Shown here: in pieces, positions 508-6,653 of the stretch | Layout of the letters: the number at the start of each line of letters is the position of its first letter | Position numbering within the stretch: the first letter of the stretch is position 1 | Origin: a virus | Taxonomy: Duplodnaviria; Heunggongvirae; Uroviricota; Caudoviricetes | Reading direction: 5' to 3' (one strand) | Length of the DNA stretch: 10,684 bases | Virus record (IMG/VR): IMGVR_UViG_2671180643_000008 | Translations under genes and position numbers: made by a program | Notes under the pieces: generated by a model | Database searches by the model: none | What the model was told of the DNA's origin: nothing | The model's input: only the letters and a program-made list of their open reading frames with translations

Positions 508-975
508 ATGAACCGTGTTCTGTGCGTGGTTATCATTGTCCTGCTGGTGGCCTGTGGTGCGCTTAGTCTGGGGCTGAATCATTACCGTGATCACGCCATC
601 ATCTACAAAGAGCAGCGCGATAAAAAAGCCAGTGAGCTGGAGCTGGCGAACGCGACAATTACTGATATGCAGATACGCCAGCGTGATGTCGCTGCATTTG
701 ATGCCAGATACTCGAGGGAATTAGCCGATGCGAGAGCTGAAAATGAAACTCTGCGTGCTGATGTTGCCGCTGGTCGTAAGCGCCTGCGGATCAACGCCAC
801 CTGCCCCGGTACCGTGCGTGAAGCCACCGGCACCTCCGGCGTGGATAATGCAACCGGCCCCCGACTGGCAGACACCGCTGAACGGGATTATTTCATCCTC
901 AGAGAACGGCTGATGGCAATGCAGAAGCAACTGGAAGGAGCACAGGAATATATCCGTACCCAGTGTATACCGTGA
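508..975 (+). CDS. Rz: Rz i-spanin (inner-membrane spanin subunit)
   Basis: Translation MNRVLCVVIIVLLVACGALSLGLNHYRDHAIIYKEQRDKKASELELANATITDMQIRQRDVAAFDARYSRELADARAENETLRADVAAGRKRL... has an N-terminal TM helix, a coiled-coil periplasmic domain, and the conserved NHYRD and PRLADTAERDYF motifs of lambda Rz. The ORF tool's upstream Met at 451 is rejected in favour of ATG 508, which sits just before the TM segment. Confidence 0.85.
   Translation: MNRVLCVVIIVLLVACGALSLGLNHYRDHAIIYKEQRDKKASELELANATITDMQIRQRDVAAFDARYSRELADARAENETLRADVAAGRKRLRINATCPGTVREATGTSGVDNATGPRLADTAERDYFILRERLMAMQKQLEGAQEYIRTQCIP
728..913 (+). CDS. Rz1: Rz1 o-spanin (outer-membrane lipoprotein), embedded in the +1 frame of Rz
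   Basis: Encodes MRELKMKLCVLMLPLVVSACGSTPPAPVPCVKPPAPPAWIMQPAPDWQTPLNGIISSSENG: a signal peptide with lipobox LVVSAC and a proline-rich mature part, very similar to lambda Rz1. GAGGGA lies 8 nt upstream of ATG 728. Entirely inside Rz in another frame. Confidence 0.8.
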   Translation: MRELKMKLCVLMLPLVVSACGSTPPAPVPCVKPPAPPAWIMQPAPDWQTPLNGIISSSENG

Positions 976-1261
976 TGTTTTGTTATGAAGGTGTTACTGG
1001 TAACGTTAAGGTAATTTAACAAAGAGTCAGTTCCGGACTTTATAGTGTGCTCAGTTCATGGCCAAAAACGATTTCTGTGATAAATATTTTGAATATTATT
1101 TACAGGTAAATGGAGTGGGGCACATGGATAGAAATATTACAATAGAGAATGAAGTATATGCCCGTATTGTATGGGCAGAGAAGGCAAAAACACGGTAATT
1201 CCGTGTGTTGCCATGATACCTGATTGGCAGAATAGTTGTTTGGTTTTGAGTATATAGTCAG

Positions 1262-1420
1262 CGTTTTTTGTTCAGTAATTGCTCCCTCAAAAAATAATAA
1301 AATAAGGTGATTATTTTTGTTTATTATTTAGTTTTTTTTGTGTGTTGTTTTATTGTTTTTGCGTGGTTTGTTTTTTATTGTTATTTCATTAAGGGAAGGT
1401 AAATTCAGGATGGCAGTCTG
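1262..1420 (+). promoter_or_regulatory. AT-rich, T-tract-rich upstream region of the PerC-like gene with a candidate sigma70 promoter
   Basis: Phased T-tracts (TTTTTTGT, TTTTATTGTTTTTG, etc.) suggest curved DNA. Candidate -35 TTGTTA (1378-1383), 16-bp spacer, -10 TAAATT (1400-1405). GGAGG at 1430-1434 lies 6 nt before ATG 1441. Confidence 0.3.
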
Positions 1421-1440
1421 TAGATAATCGGAGGTCACTT

Positions 1441-1755
1441 ATGCTACATGATCACGTGGCAGAATGTCTGGAGAAAAAAGGACTGTACCGGAGAGCAGCT
1501 GAACGATGGGCAAAAGTGATGGTACAGCTAAGTGATGACCAGAAAAGAAAAGTGGCGGCACAGAAACGAGCAGAGTGTTTGCGTAAGGCGCGCCGGACTC
1601 CGGTTTCACCGGTGAACCTGACCGAAATAAAACAAGCGGTCAACAGACTACATTCTGAGTTGGGAATGGGATTTGAAGAGCGGCGGGTATTCCGACGATA
1701 TAAAGGGACAGGAGAACAGAATACGTCCGGAAACGCGCGGTCAAAAAAATGCTAA
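1441..1755 (+). CDS. PerC-family transcriptional regulator (Pch-like, 104 aa); accessory moron gene
   Basis: Translation MLHDHVAECLEKKGLYRRAAERWAKVMVQLSDDQKRKVAAQKRAECLRKARR... carries the N-terminal A-E-x-L-E-x-K-G-L-(Y/W)-R-R-A-A-x-R-W signature that I recall for PerC and prophage Pch proteins. The 104-aa length matches Pch. Strong SD, AT-rich upstream DNA, and a position between lysis genes and cos. Confidence 0.72.
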   Translation: MLHDHVAECLEKKGLYRRAAERWAKVMVQLSDDQKRKVAAQKRAECLRKARRTPVSPVNLTEIKQAVNRLHSELGMGFEERRVFRRYKGTGEQNTSGNARSKKC

Positions 1756-1791: not shown

Positions 1792-1820
1792 AAAAAGCGA
1801 CTTTAGTGGTCGCTTTTTGT
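1792..1820. terminator. Bidirectional intrinsic terminator between convergent genes
   Basis: AAAAAGCGAC (1792-1801), loop TTTAGTG, GTCGCTTTTT (1809-1818): a 10-bp perfect stem flanked by an A-tract 5' and a T-tract 3', so it can act on either strand. Lies between the stop of the PerC-like gene (1755) and the 3' end of the minus-strand gene (1837). Confidence 0.55.
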
Positions 1821-1836
1821 GTCATATATAAGTCGT

Positions 1837-2061
1837 TTAAGTAAACCTGTCTGAACAGGTGCTCTGGTCGTGTTTGTCTTTGTTGGGTACAAATTGAGAA
1901 TATTTTTCATTAATTAATCTTCTTCTGCAGGCTTCAATAACCCACGCTGAAAAATTACCTGAACCTTTCAGGTCAAGAGCGATGTTAATTTGTTCAATTA
2001 TCTGGTTTGGAAATCGGATGTTGCGGGTTGTTGTTCTGCGGGTTCTGTTCTTTGATGACAT
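1837..2061 (-). CDS. Hypothetical ribbon-helix-helix (Arc/MetJ/CopG-like) DNA-binding protein next to cos
   Basis: Translation MSSKNRTRRTTTRNIRFPNQIIEQINIALDLKGSGNFSAWVIEACRRRL... has a basic N-terminal tail, then a beta-strand (IRFP) and two helices, the typical RHH pattern. I recall a similar ORF in the equivalent position at the right end of lambda. Confidence 0.6.
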   Translation of the reverse strand: MSSKNRTRRTTTRNIRFPNQIIEQINIALDLKGSGNFSAWVIEACRRRLINEKYSQFVPNKDKHDQSTCSDRFT

Positions 2062-2973: not shown

Positions 2974-4874
2974 TATGATGGCTGCCGTTTCGGTTGCGCT
3001 GCAGCCTCTGGTCAGGGTTGTACCAATGACGGCAGTTGAATGGGCTGATCAAAATTATTATCTGCCTAAAGAATCCTCATACGGTGAGGGCGAATGGAAA
3101 ACGCTGCCATTCCAGATCGCCATCATGAACAGCATGGGGAATGATCAGATCCGCACTGTTAATCTGATTAAATCTGCCCGTGTTGGCTATACAAAGATGT
3201 TGCTGGGGGGTGGTCGGGTATTTTATTGAGCATAAATCCCGAAACAGTCTGCTTTTTCAGCCCACGGATTCTGCCGCTGAAGATTTTATGAAGTCTCACG
3301 TGGAGGCGACGATTCGGAACGTGCCATGCCTGAAAGACCTTTCCCCATGGCTGGGGCGTAAACATCGTGACAATACTCTCACGCTGAAACGCTTTTCATC
3401 GGGCGTCGGTTTCTGGTGCCTGGGCGGCGCTGCCGCCAAAAACTACCGTGAAAAATCCGTGGACGTGGTCTGCTATGACGAACTTTCCTCGTTCGAGCCG
3501 GATGTCGAAAAAGAGGGCTCGCCAACCCTGCTGGGGGATAAGCGTATTGAGGGGTCGGTGTGGCCAAAATCCATTCGCGGCTCGACGCCTAAAATCAAAG
3601 GCACCTGCCAGATCGAAAAAGCCGCTAACGAGTCGGCGCATTTTATGCGTTTTTATGTGCCCTGCCCGCACTGTGGGGAGGAGCAGTATCTGAAATTTGG
3701 CGATGAGTCCACGCCTTTTGGGCTTAAATGGGAGAAGGACAGCCCTGAAAGTGTTTTCTACCTCTGTGAACATCATGGCTGCGTGATCCATCAGTCTGAA
3801 CTGGACCAGAGCAACGGGCGGTGGATCTGTGAAAACACGGGCATGTGGACCCGTGACGGTCTGACGTTTTTCAGCGCCCGGGGTGATGAAATTCCGCCGC
3901 CGCGCTCCATCACGTTCCATATCTGGACGGCGTACAGTCCGTTCACCACCTGGGTACAGATTGTCTATGACTGGCTGGATGTACTGAAAGATCCCAACGG
4001 CCTGAAAACCTTTGTGAACACCACGCTGGGCGAGACCTGGGAAGAGGCCGTGGGCGAAAAACTCGATCACCAGGTACTGATGGATAAGGTGGTGCGTTAC
4101 ACGGCGGCGGTGCCTGCCCGGGTGGTTTATCTGACGGCGGGCATTGACTCGCAGCGAAACCGTTTTGAGATGTATGTCTGGGGATGGGCTCCGGGAGAGG
4201 AAGCCTTTCTGGTGGATAAAATCATCATTATGGGGCGTCCTGATGAGGAAGAGACGCTGTTACGTGTGGATGCGGCGATCAACAAAAAATACCGCCATGC
4301 GGATGGCACCGAAATGACTATTTCCCGTGTCTGCTGGGACACCGGGGGGATCGATGGTGAAATTGTTTATCAGAGATCAAAAAAACACGGTGTTTTCCGG
4401 GTGCTGCCGGTAAAAGGCGCATCTGTCTATGGCAAGCCGGTGATCACCATGCCAAAAACCCGCAATCAGCGGGGCGTGTATCTGTGTGAAGTGGGAACGG
4501 ACACCGCAAAAGAAATTCTCTATGCCCGTATGAAAGCCGATCCCTCGCCTGCGGATGAAGCCACGTCGTATGCCATCCGTTTTCCTGATGATCCGGAGAT
4601 TTTTTCGCAGACAGAGGCGCAGCAACTGGTGGCGGAAGAGCTGGTGGAGAAGTGGGAAAAAGGAAAGATGCGTCTGCTGTGGGATAACAAAAAGCGGCGT
4701 AACGAAGCGCTGGACTGCCTGGTGTATGCCTACGCGGCATTACGTGTGTCCGTGCAACGCTGGCAGCTTGATCTGGCTGTACTGGCAAAATCCCGGGAAG
4801 AAGAGACGACCCGGCCAACCCTGAAAGAACTGGCAGCGAAGCTGTCCGGAGGAGTGAATGGTTACAGTCGCTGA
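2945..4874 (+). pseudogene. A: Terminase large subunit (gpA family), interrupted by a +1 frameshift at a G6 run (3205-3210)
   Basis: ATG 2945 gives MNISEQQLNNMM...TAVEWADQNYYLPKESSYGEGEWKTLPFQIAIMNSMG...VGYTKMLLGGGRVFY and stops at 3227-3229. The remaining roughly 550 aa (WGVVGYFIEHKSRN...CPHCGEEQYLKFGD... to TGA 4872-4874) are in the next frame. Both parts are colinear with lambda gpA as recalled. Removing one G from GGGGGG restores K-M-L-L-G-V-V-G-Y-F-I-E-H-K. Confidence 0.8.
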
Positions 4875-5064: not shown

Positions 5065-6653
5065 AACGAACGCCTGTCCTGATTGATGTGAACGGTGTTC
5101 CGCTTCGGGAGAGCCTCAGCTACAACGGGGGCGGTGCAGGATTTGGCGGGCAAATGGCGGAGTGGTTGCCACCGGCGCAGAGTGCCGATACGGCCCTGTT
5201 GCCCGCGTTGCGTCTGGGCAATGCCCGTGCAGATGATCTGGTGCGCAATAACGGGATAGCGGCCAATGCGGTGGCACTGCATAAGGATCATATTGTCGGG
5301 CATATGTTTCTGATCAGCTACCGTCCGAACTGGCGCTGGCTGGGGATGCGGGAGACTGCAGCAAAAAGTTTTGTCGATGAGGTGGAGGCGGCCTGGTCGG
5401 AATACGCCGAAGGGATGTCTGGCGAGATCGACGTGGAAGGGAAACGCACGTTTACGGAATTTATCCGTGAAGGTGTGGGCGTTCATGCGTTTAACGGCGA
5501 AATCTTTGTGCAGCCGGTCTGGGATACGGAGAGCACGCAACTGTTTCGTACGCGTTTTAAAGCCGTGAGTCCGAAACGGGTAGACACGCCAGGACACGGT
5601 ATGGGGAACCGTTTTCTGCGGGCCGGGGTGGAGGTCGATCGATATGGCCGTGCCGTTGCGTACCATATCTGTGAGGATGATTTTCCGTTCTCTGGTAGTG
5701 GACGATGGGAACGGATCCCGCGTGAACTACCCACCGGGCGTCCGGCCATGCTGCATATTTTCGAGCCGGTGGAGGACGGGCAGACCCGTGGGGCTAATCA
5801 GTTTTACAGCGTCATGGAACGGCTGAAGATGCTGGATTCCCTGCAGGCAACACAGCTTCAGTCGGCCATTGTGAAAGCCATGTATGCAGCGACGATTGAA
5901 AGTGAACTTGATACCGAAAAGGCCTTTGAATATATCGCCGGTGCGCCGCAGGGGCAGAAGGATAATCCGCTTATTAATATTCTGGAGAAGTTCTCCACCT
6001 GGTATGACACGAATAACGTGACGCTGGGCGGTGTCAAAATTCCGCACCTTTTCCCCGGTGATGATCTGAAACTGCAGACTGCGCAGGATTCAGACAATGG
6101 ATTTTCGGCGCTTGAACAGGCGCTGCTGCGGTATATCGCCGCCGGTCTTGGCGTTTCCTACGAACAGTTGTCCCGGGATTACTCGAAGGTCAGTTATTCA
6201 AGTGCCCGCGCCTCCGCCAATGAGTCGTGGCGCTATTTTATGGGACGACGAAAATTTATTGCGTCCCGGCTGGCCACGCAGATGTTTTCCTGCTGGCTGG
6301 AAGAGGCACTTCTTCGGGGGATTATTCGTCCGCCACGGGCGCGTTTTGATTTTTATCAGGCGCGATCAGCCTGGTCACGGGCTGAGTGGATTGGAGCCGG
6401 AAGAATGGCCATTGACGGGCTCAAGGAAGTCCAGGAATCAGTGATGCGCATTGAGGCCGGACTGAGCACGTATGAGAAAGAGCTGGCGCTGATGGGCGAG
6501 GATTATCAGGACATTTTCCGCCAGCAGGTCAGGGAATCTGCTGAGCGACAAAAAGCCGGACTCTCACGTCCGGTGTGGATAGCGCAGGCGTATGAGCAGC
6601 AGATAGCGGAGAGTCGCAGGCCGGAAGAGGAGACAACACCACGTGAGACGTAA
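5061..6653 (+). CDS. B: Portal protein (gpB family)
   Basis: The 530-aa product shows long near-identical blocks to lambda gpB as recalled (ARADDLVRNNG, FEPVEDGQTRGANQFYSVME, LQSAIVKAMYAATIESELDT, LLRYIAAGLGVSYEQLSRDY, GRMAIDGLKEVQE). Synteny A-W-B. Confidence 0.9.
   Translation: MKRTPVLIDVNGVPLRESLSYNGGGAGFGGQMAEWLPPAQSADTALLPALRLGNARADDLVRNNGIAANAVALHKDHIVGHMFLISYRPNWRWLGMRETAAKSFVDEVEAAWSEYAEGMSGEIDVEGKRTFTEFIREGVGVHAFNGEIFVQPVWDTESTQLFRTRFKAVSPKRVDTPGHGMGNRFLRAGVEVDRYGRAVAYHICEDDFPFSGSGRWERIPRELPTGRPAMLHIFEPVEDGQTRGANQFYSVMERLKMLDSLQATQLQSAIVKAMYAATIESELDTEKAFEYIAGAPQGQKDNPLINILEKFSTWYDTNNVTLGGVKIPHLFPGDDLKLQTAQDSDNGFSALEQALLRYIAAGLGVSYEQLSRDYSKVSYSSARASANESWRYFMGRRKFIASRLATQMFSCWLEEALLRGIIRPPRARFDFYQARSAWSRAEWIGAGRMAIDGLKEVQESVMRIEAGLSTYEKELALMGEDYQDIFRQQVRESAERQKAGLSRPVWIAQAYEQQIAESRRPEEETTPRET

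What the first reader, a model, noticed from the sequence alone, without database searches (positions are those of the whole stretch)
1262..1420. Phased T-tract (curved-DNA-like) region upstream of the regulator gene
About 130 bp of T-rich sequence with repeated TTTTTTGT / TTTTATTG motifs at roughly helical spacing precedes the PerC-like gene. Such intrinsically curved AT-rich DNA is a typical H-NS nucleation site on horizontally acquired genes. A candidate sigma70 promoter (-35 TTGTTA 1378-1383, -10 TAAATT 1400-1405) sits at its 3' edge. This suggests the regulator is silenced and conditionally expressed independently of phage late transcription.
Basis: inference. Interest (0 to 1): 0.4.

Follow-up and report, generated by a model that had tools for sequence, protein, structure and literature searches.

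The report
T-rich promoter region of pchA
The T-rich stretch is the already studied promoter region of the prophage virulence regulator gene pchA of enterohaemorrhagic E. coli; the T-richness is real and extreme, but the claimed helical phasing and DNA curvature are no more than chance gives.

Summary
The window is the late region of a lambdoid prophage. It runs Rz, a PerC-family gene, a DUF3950 gene, Nu1 and terminase. Positions 941-1755 differ from O157:H7 Sakai pchA and its upstream DNA by one base, and 1262-1420 is identical. The T-rich tract is real: 67% T over 86 bp, far above anything else in the window or in 50 kb of Sakai prophage Sp4. The phasing is not supported. Tract centres show no 10.5-bp phase (Rayleigh R 0.05). 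The best fit over 9.5-12 bp is matched by 44% of random placements. Predicted curvature (17 degrees per turn) equals that of shuffled sequence. The tract lies inside the published PpchA reporter fragment (window 941-1440), which drives butyrate-responsive expression from plasmids. An independent, conditional promoter is therefore already known. TTGTTT-17-TATTGT (1353-1381) is better conserved across diverged homologues. H-NS binding is plausible from composition (about 30% GC) but untested. One new detail emerged: the tract is the diversity hot spot among pchA/B/C alleles (73% identity against 98-99% in the flanks), while T-richness is retained. Verdict: a known element, of low interest.

The parts
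941..1440 (+). Published PpchA promoter fragment (end of Rz to the base before the pch ATG)
   Evidence: The primers of PMC10101121 match 941-961 and 1420-1440 exactly. There is one SNP against Sakai pchA upstream DNA, at 989.
1262..1390 (+). T-rich tract (core 1305-1390: 67% T, 79% A+T)
   Evidence: Composition. It is an extreme outlier against the window and 50 kb of Sp4. It is also the diversity hot spot among alleles.
1310..1386 (+). Degenerate tandem repeat, period 21 or 25 bp
   Evidence: Tandem Repeats Finder: 3.3 copies at 74% matches, or 2.8 copies at 72%.
1332..1339 (+). T8 homopolymer that varies in length between alleles
   Evidence: T8 in 48 loci, T7 in 26, T6 in 1. It is T7 in Sakai pchB and pchC in the finished Sakai genome record.
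1353..1381 (+). Candidate promoter A: TTGTTT (1353-1358), 17-bp spacer, TATTGT (1376-1381); predicted start near 1388
   Evidence: Score 9.1. Hexamers and the 17-bp spacing are kept in pchA, pchB, pchC and L084 even though the spacer sequence is replaced. The -10 form [T/C]ATT[G/A]T is kept in E. albertii, L086 and L003. This is inference; no start site was mapped here.
1378..1405 (+).
   Evidence: Score 9.5. The spacer shrinks to 15 bp in the pchB allele (my count of the pchB/L083 sequence). The -10 is TGAATT in E. albertii.
1389..1434 (+). Most conserved upstream block: TTAAGGGAAG ... GTAGATAATCGGAGG, including the Shine-Dalgarno GGAGG at 1430-1434
   Evidence: Conserved in E. albertii and in the diverged E. 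coli alleles.
1441..1755 (+). PerC-family regulator gene, pchA allele (104 aa)
   Evidence: PF06069, E = 3.8e-44. Identical to Sakai pchA.
1792..1818 (.). Two-way intrinsic terminator hairpin between pch and the DUF3950 gene
   Evidence: AAAAAGCGAC-loop-GTCGCTTTTT, -14.7 kcal/mol, z = -3.6.
1058..1198 (+). 46-aa ORF inside the PpchA fragment, upstream of the tract
   Evidence: Full-length match to phrog_2157, E = 2.7e-37. It is not annotated in RefSeq.

Best explanation
The T-rich tract is the promoter-proximal part of the native regulatory region of a group-1 pch gene (the pchA allele). This gene forms a promoter-gene-terminator 'moron' between Rz and the packaging genes of a lambdoid prophage. 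A weak sigma-70 promoter lies at the 3' end of the tract or overlaps it. Candidate A is TTGTTT-17-TATTGT, with a start near 1388. Candidate B is TTGTTA-16-TAAATT, with a start near 1412. The A/T-rich DNA just upstream most likely acts through its composition rather than a specific sequence. It could contact the RNA polymerase alpha subunit like an UP element, and it could serve as a platform for nucleoid proteins and regulators such as H-NS and Lrp. It also carries most of the sequence differences between pchA, pchB and pchC. Shown: gene identity, promoter activity of the fragment (published), extreme T-richness, and conserved composition despite sequence divergence. Inferred: which hexamers are used, the UP-like and nucleoid-protein role, and any effect of allele differences on expression.
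For: The gene is PerC-family and sits between Rz and Nu1. The locus occurs in 673 of 5426 complete E. coli genomes, median three copies, and the tract always accompanies pch (1876 against 1881 places). It is identical to Sakai pchA upstream DNA. The PpchA reporter fragment equals 941-1440 and is active and butyrate-responsive on plasmids. Published regulators are summarised. The Sp4 inversion makes an own promoter necessary. A terminator follows pch. The tract stays with pch whatever the terminase type. T-richness at -140 to -51 is kept in diverged homologues: 52-66% T in E. albertii, L066, L084 and L086. pchB-type alleles are 73% identical over 1305-1390 but keep 69% T and 85% A+T, while the flanks are 98-99% identical. 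Candidate A keeps its hexamers and spacing across lineages. With a start at 1388, the T8 run would fall at -56 to -49, the UP-element position (sequence reading).
Against: No transcription start could be retrieved. Nakanishi 2006, Honda 2009 and Melson & Kendall 2019 are not held. No promoter candidate exceeds chance by score. The match to the UP consensus is only partial. One natural allele (L062) lacks about 40 bp of the tract, so the whole tract may not be essential. High diversity could simply reflect weak constraint.
Confidence: 0.7

Rival explanations
1. One reading: phased T-tracts make intrinsically curved DNA that nucleates H-NS and silences pch until an anti-silencer acts.
For: GC is very low, 29.5% over 1201-1400. 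The gene was acquired horizontally. Pch and Ler targets elsewhere are H-NS-bound. LrhA is reported to activate pchA and pchB. From memory of Honda 2009, its sites lie about 400 bp upstream, which would fit an anti-silencing geometry.
Against: There is no helical phasing. Predicted curvature equals that of shuffled sequence. No high-affinity H-NS-like motif lies in the tract. PpchA has high basal activity in an hns+ host, although on a multicopy plasmid. No accessible report shows H-NS acting at pch.
Confidence: 0.3
2. The tract is transcribed as a U-rich 5' leader and acts at the RNA level, for example through Hfq or RNase E. The transcript would come from an upstream promoter such as TTGCCA-17-AATAGT (1208-1236) or from the late transcript.
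For: That upstream candidate has the best score, 10.8. Late read-through must cross the tract during prophage induction. pchA is known to be controlled after transcription by DicF and Hfq.
Against: An RNA of 1243-1445 folds no better than shuffles, z = +1.17. There is no Rfam match. The sequence is hypervariable, which is unlike a structured leader. The published DicF mechanism involves the Shine-Dalgarno region and the coding sequence, not an upstream leader.
Confidence: 0.1
3. The tract is functionally neutral low-complexity filler at a moron junction. T-richness and repeats would then arise from slippage and mutational bias, and the diversity from lack of constraint.
For: Diversity is highest in the tract. 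Homopolymer length varies. The repeat is degenerate. A 40-bp deletion allele exists.
Against: T-richness and strand bias are retained in alleles 27% diverged and in E. albertii. The tract overlaps or abuts the conserved promoter hexamers. It lies within a fragment with demonstrated promoter activity.
Confidence: 0.15

Closest known systems
PpchA, the promoter region of pchA (ECs_1091) of E. coli O157:H7 Sakai prophage Sp4
   Same: The sequence is identical over 990-1755, with one SNP in 941-1755. The published reporter fragment has the same boundaries.
   Different: Only the downstream context differs. The window has an intact DUF3950 gene, Nu1 and terminase. Sakai Sp4 has an IS629 insertion and an inversion after pchA.
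Lambdoid phage morons (promoter-gene-terminator insertions in the late operon, such as bor or stx)
   Same: The unit sits between Rz and the packaging genes. It has its own promoter activity (published) and a terminator after the gene. It travels as a unit with different terminase modules.
   Different: The upstream region is unusually long (about 240-465 bp) and extremely T-biased.
UP elements of strong sigma-70 promoters (such as rrnB P1)
   Same: A/T-rich DNA, including a T-run, lies at about -40 to -60 if candidate A is the promoter.
   Different: The match to the consensus is only partial. Dependence on the alpha C-terminal domain is untested and the promoter assignment is unproven.
H-NS-silenced curved promoters (virF, proU, hns)
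   Same: GC is very low, the gene is horizontally acquired, and activators are reported (from memory of Honda 2009, acting from sites about 400 bp upstream).
   Different: There is no phased A-tract curvature beyond what composition gives, no high-affinity motif, and no binding data.

Membership tests
Group-1 pch (pchA/B/C) promoter region | Lies directly upstream of a PerC-family gene of the PchABC group in a lambdoid prophage | tested here: met
   PF06069, E = 3.8e-44, with Rz upstream and Nu1 downstream. The coding sequence is identical to Sakai pchA.
Group-1 pch (pchA/B/C) promoter region | Sequence identity with the experimentally used PpchA fragment | tested here: met
   Both primers match exactly at 941-961 and 1420-1440. 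There is one SNP against Sakai.
Group-1 pch (pchA/B/C) promoter region | Mapped transcription start within the fragment | not testable with these tools
   The primary papers are not held. Only reporter activity of the whole fragment is documented.
Intrinsically curved DNA (phased A/T-tracts) | A/T-tracts of 4 nt or more repeated in phase with the helix (10-11 bp) | tested here: not met
   Rayleigh R is 0.05 at 10.5 bp. The best R over 9.5-12 bp is reached by 44% of random placements.
Intrinsically curved DNA (phased A/T-tracts) | Predicted curvature above sequences of the same composition | tested here: not met
   17.2 degrees per turn against 16.1 +/- 3.4 for shuffles. Phased A6 controls give 27. 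The wedge parameters were recalled from memory.
Intrinsically curved DNA (phased A/T-tracts) | Anomalously slow gel migration at low temperature | not testable with these tools
   This needs an experiment.
H-NS nucleation site | A/T-rich DNA well below genome GC | tested here: met
   29.5% GC over 1201-1400 and 79% A+T over 1305-1390.
H-NS nucleation site | High-affinity motif resembling TCGATAAATT | tested here: not met
   No site with two or fewer mismatches lies in 1199-1445. The single site in 941-1445 is at 1013-1022. The motif was recalled from memory.
H-NS nucleation site | H-NS occupancy and derepression in an hns mutant | not testable with these tools
   No list of H-NS sites covering pch was found in the held literature or supplements.
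UP element | A/T-rich sequence at -59 to -38 matching the consensus NNAAAWWTWTTTTNNNAAANNN | tested here: inconclusive
   With a start at 1388, positions 1329-1350 match 8 of 14 specified positions by reading the sequence. The start site is unproven.
Phage moron | Own promoter and terminator inside the late operon, inherited as a unit | tested here: met
   Promoter activity is published. The terminator has z = -3.6. The same unit occurs with lambda-type and with HNH-type terminase modules.
Homopolymer contingency (phase-variation) locus | Length-variable homopolymer inside a promoter spacer or coding sequence that switches expression | tested here: inconclusive
   T8, T7 and T6 variants exist. 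The run lies upstream of both candidate -35 hexamers, not in a spacer. Within-strain switching was not assessed.

The most novel reading that the evidence does not exclude
The T-rich tract is a module constrained in composition but free to vary in sequence, and it sets paralogue-specific expression of the LEE master regulators. Selection would keep it T-rich, for UP-like or nucleoid-protein function. A block of about 130 bp, 27% diverged, together with T-run length differences, would distinguish pchA, pchB and pchC while recombination keeps their flanks nearly identical. This would be a regulatory cassette that lets otherwise identical prophage copies respond differently.
Probability: 0.2. Interest if true: 0.45.

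Novelty: already known. Interest (0 to 1): 0.2.

Why it matters
PchA, PchB and PchC switch on the LEE type III secretion island of enterohaemorrhagic E. coli, so their promoters are entry points for host signals such as butyrate, the stringent response and oxygen. That this region carries an independent, conditional promoter is established and is already used in biosensors. What remains open is narrow. Which hexamers are used? Does H-NS bind here? Do the allele-specific differences concentrated in the tract explain the reported differential regulation of the paralogues? Answers would refine a known circuit rather than reveal a new one.

Tried and rejected
- **Rfam:** no match in the whole window at gathering thresholds.
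- **Exact-seed repeat search:** no direct-repeat families. It found only A-rich/T-rich inverted matches that composition explains.
- **RNA folding of a putative U-rich leader (1243-1445):** no structure beyond shuffles, z = +1.17.
- **Antisense small RNA:** I considered a minus-strand promoter-like site at 1323..1294 with a terminator-like hairpin at 1206..1190 (z = -1.84). I rejected it as weak. Its -10 hexamer and the hairpin stem are both altered in the pchB-type allele.
- **Consensus scans for H-NS, Lrp, IHF and Fis:** nothing decisive.
- **GATAAT (1423-1428) as a -10 hexamer:** rejected, because the start would fall inside the Shine-Dalgarno sequence.
- **cos or packaging function:** rejected. 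The tract is 1 kb from Nu1 and stays with pch whatever the terminase type.
- **Phage collection:** only two unannotated fragments were found.
- **Plasmid PerC homologues:** perC in the perABC operon and others at 35-52% identity are in different contexts and uninformative.
- **Literature on the start site and on H-NS at pch:** the primary papers are not held and text searches found nothing.

Full report
**What the window is.** Pfam assigns 451-975 to Rz, 1441-1755 to PerC (PF06069, E = 3.8e-44) and 1837-2061 (minus strand) to DUF3950. It assigns 2464-2973 to Nu1 and 3180-4874 to terminase large subunit. Positions 1000-1800 are 100% identical in many O157, O26 and O145 genomes. The locus occurs in 673 of 5426 complete E. 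coli genomes, with a median of three copies. The upstream 246 bp alone gives almost the same count, 1876 against 1881 places, so the tract always accompanies this gene. Compared with the Sakai genome, the window carries the pchA allele. There is one SNP, at 989, across 941-1755, and 1262-1420 is identical. pchB and pchC are the two other common upstream haplotypes.

**Checking the observation: what holds.**
- Positions 1262-1390 are 57% T.
- The core 1305-1390 is 67% T and 2% C.
- No other 86-bp stretch exceeds 48% T in the window or 55% in 50 kb of Sakai Sp4.
- The named motifs and hexamers are at the stated coordinates.
- Tandem Repeats Finder finds a degenerate repeat of period 21 or 25 bp over 1310-1386.

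**Checking the observation: what does not hold.** The claim of helical phasing fails.
- The motif pairs lie 70 and 25 bp apart.
- A/T-tract centres give Rayleigh R = 0.05 at 10.5 bp.
- The best R over 9.5-12 bp is 0.67, and 44% of random placements reach it.
- AA/TT Fourier power peaks at 11.25-11.5 bp but is only marginal.

I implemented the BEND curvature algorithm with Bolshoy wedge angles recalled from memory. Phased A6 and kinetoplast-like controls gave 27 degrees per turn. The tract gives 17, seven other places in the window give the same, and shuffles of the same segment give 16.1 +/- 3.4. The DNA is therefore extremely T-rich, but it is not phased or curved beyond what its composition predicts.

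**What it is.** Primers published for the PpchA reporter (PMC10101121) match 941-961 and 1420-1440 exactly. PMC7279287 uses the same 5' end. That fragment drives sfGFP in E. coli BL21, with high basal and butyrate-increased activity. Reviews describe control of pchA by Lrp/butyrate, LrhA and LeuO. They also describe translational activation by DicF, which opens a pairing between the Shine-Dalgarno region and an anti-Shine-Dalgarno sequence. SOS and prophage induction also raise group-1 pch transcripts, so late read-through and the gene's own promoter coexist. In Sakai Sp4 the holin-endolysin-Rz-pchA block is inverted relative to the antiterminator gene, which makes an own promoter necessary there. 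A strong hairpin terminator follows pch. The unit occurs with lambda-type and with HNH-type terminase modules. This is the architecture of a phage moron.

**Which promoter.** A position-weight scan gives four weak plus-strand candidates:

| Candidate | Position of -35 / -10 | Score |
|---|---|---|
| TTGCCA-17-AATAGT | 1208 / 1231 | 10.8 |
| TTAACA-19-TATAGT | 1016 / 1041 | 10.1 |
| TTGTTT-17-TATTGT | 1353 / 1376 | 9.1 |

Shuffled sequence yields a best score of 11.4 +/- 1.7, so none is significant. Comparison across 38 upstream haplotypes and diverged homologues helps more. The homologues include E. albertii, a 79%-identical plasmid copy and an Escherichia sp.
- TTGTTT-17-TATTGT keeps both hexamers and its 17-bp spacing in pchA, pchB, pchC and L084, although the spacer sequence between them is replaced.
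- Its -10 form [T/C]ATT[G/A]T persists in every lineage.

I therefore slightly prefer candidate A, with a start near 1388. That would place T8 at -56 to -49, the UP-element position. This is inference. The mapped start site may be in papers I could not access.

**H-NS.** Composition fits an H-NS target, at 29.5% GC over 1201-1400. No high-affinity-like motif lies in the tract. Basal activity in an hns+ host is high. I found no accessible data on H-NS at pch. The idea remains plausible and untested.

**An additional finding.** Among 54 haplotypes spanning -480 to +375, diversity is 0.11-0.16 across 1261-1410. It is 0.01-0.08 in the upstream non-coding flank and at most 0.007 through most of the coding sequence. 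pchB-type alleles are 73% identical to the window over 1305-1390 but 98-99% identical in 961-1260 and 99.7% in the gene. They still keep 69% T and 85% A+T. T8 is T7 in Sakai pchB and pchC, and across loci the counts are 48 with T8, 26 with T7 and 1 with T6. One allele lacks about 40 bp of the tract. Composition is conserved while sequence is not. This fits a composition-dependent role and may underlie the reported differential regulation of the paralogues.

**Verdict.** This is a known regulatory region. The extreme T-richness is confirmed. The phasing and curvature claims are rejected. An independent, conditional promoter is already published. The H-NS role is open.

Noticed in passing
window 1261-1410: Sequence diversity among pchA/B/C alleles is concentrated in the T-rich tract: 0.11-0.16, against 0.01-0.08 in the upstream flank and at most 0.007 through most of the gene. 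pchB-type alleles are 27% diverged here but about 1% diverged in the flanks, and T-richness is retained.
   Followed up: partly
window 1332-1339: The T8 homopolymer varies in length: T8 in 48 loci, T7 in 26, T6 in 1. It is T7 in Sakai pchB and pchC, so it is probably not a sequencing artefact.
   Followed up: partly
L062 (IMG/VR contig), equivalent to window about 1335-1372: A natural allele has about 40 bp deleted inside the T-rich tract. The proximal conserved block and the gene remain intact.
   Followed up: no
window 1058-1198 (+): A 46-aa ORF between Rz and pch matches phrog_2157 over its full length (E = 2.7e-37), but RefSeq does not annotate it. Its stop codon sits in the loop of the hairpin at 1186-1215. 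An internal ATG at 1124 has a GGAG upstream.
   Followed up: partly
window 1185-1323 (-): The minus strand has a terminator-like hairpin (1206..1190 plus a U-run) and a promoter-like site (1323..1294). Together they could give an antisense RNA of about 100 nt (fold z = -1.84). Both elements are altered in the pchB-type allele, so the evidence is weak.
   Followed up: partly
window 1792-1818: A two-way intrinsic terminator hairpin (AAAAAGCGAC / GTCGCTTTTT, z = -3.6) lies between the convergent pch and DUF3950 genes. The simple terminator scan missed it.
   Followed up: yes
L089 (Sakai Sp4) 5732-5783 (-); window 1538-1544: Sakai Sp4, the prophage that carries pchA, also encodes DicF (RF00039, 76.9 bits). 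The DicF 5' end UUCUGGU is complementary to ACCAGAA in the pch coding sequence. Next to it, TAAGTGA (1529-1535) complements TCACTTA (1435-1441) at the start codon. This fits the published DicF anti-Shine-Dalgarno mechanism.
   Followed up: partly
L089 (Sakai Sp4) 22130-26400: In Sakai Sp4 the holin-endolysin-Rz-pchA block is inverted relative to the antiterminator gene and abuts IS629. Homology with the window ends near window 1918.
   Followed up: no
window 1420-1434: GTAGATAAT just before the Shine-Dalgarno GGAGG is conserved from E. coli to E. albertii and in the 79%-identical homologues (as GGATAA[TC]). GGA motifs recur at 1394, 1408 and 1431. This may mark a site for a 5'-UTR-binding factor.
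   Followed up: no
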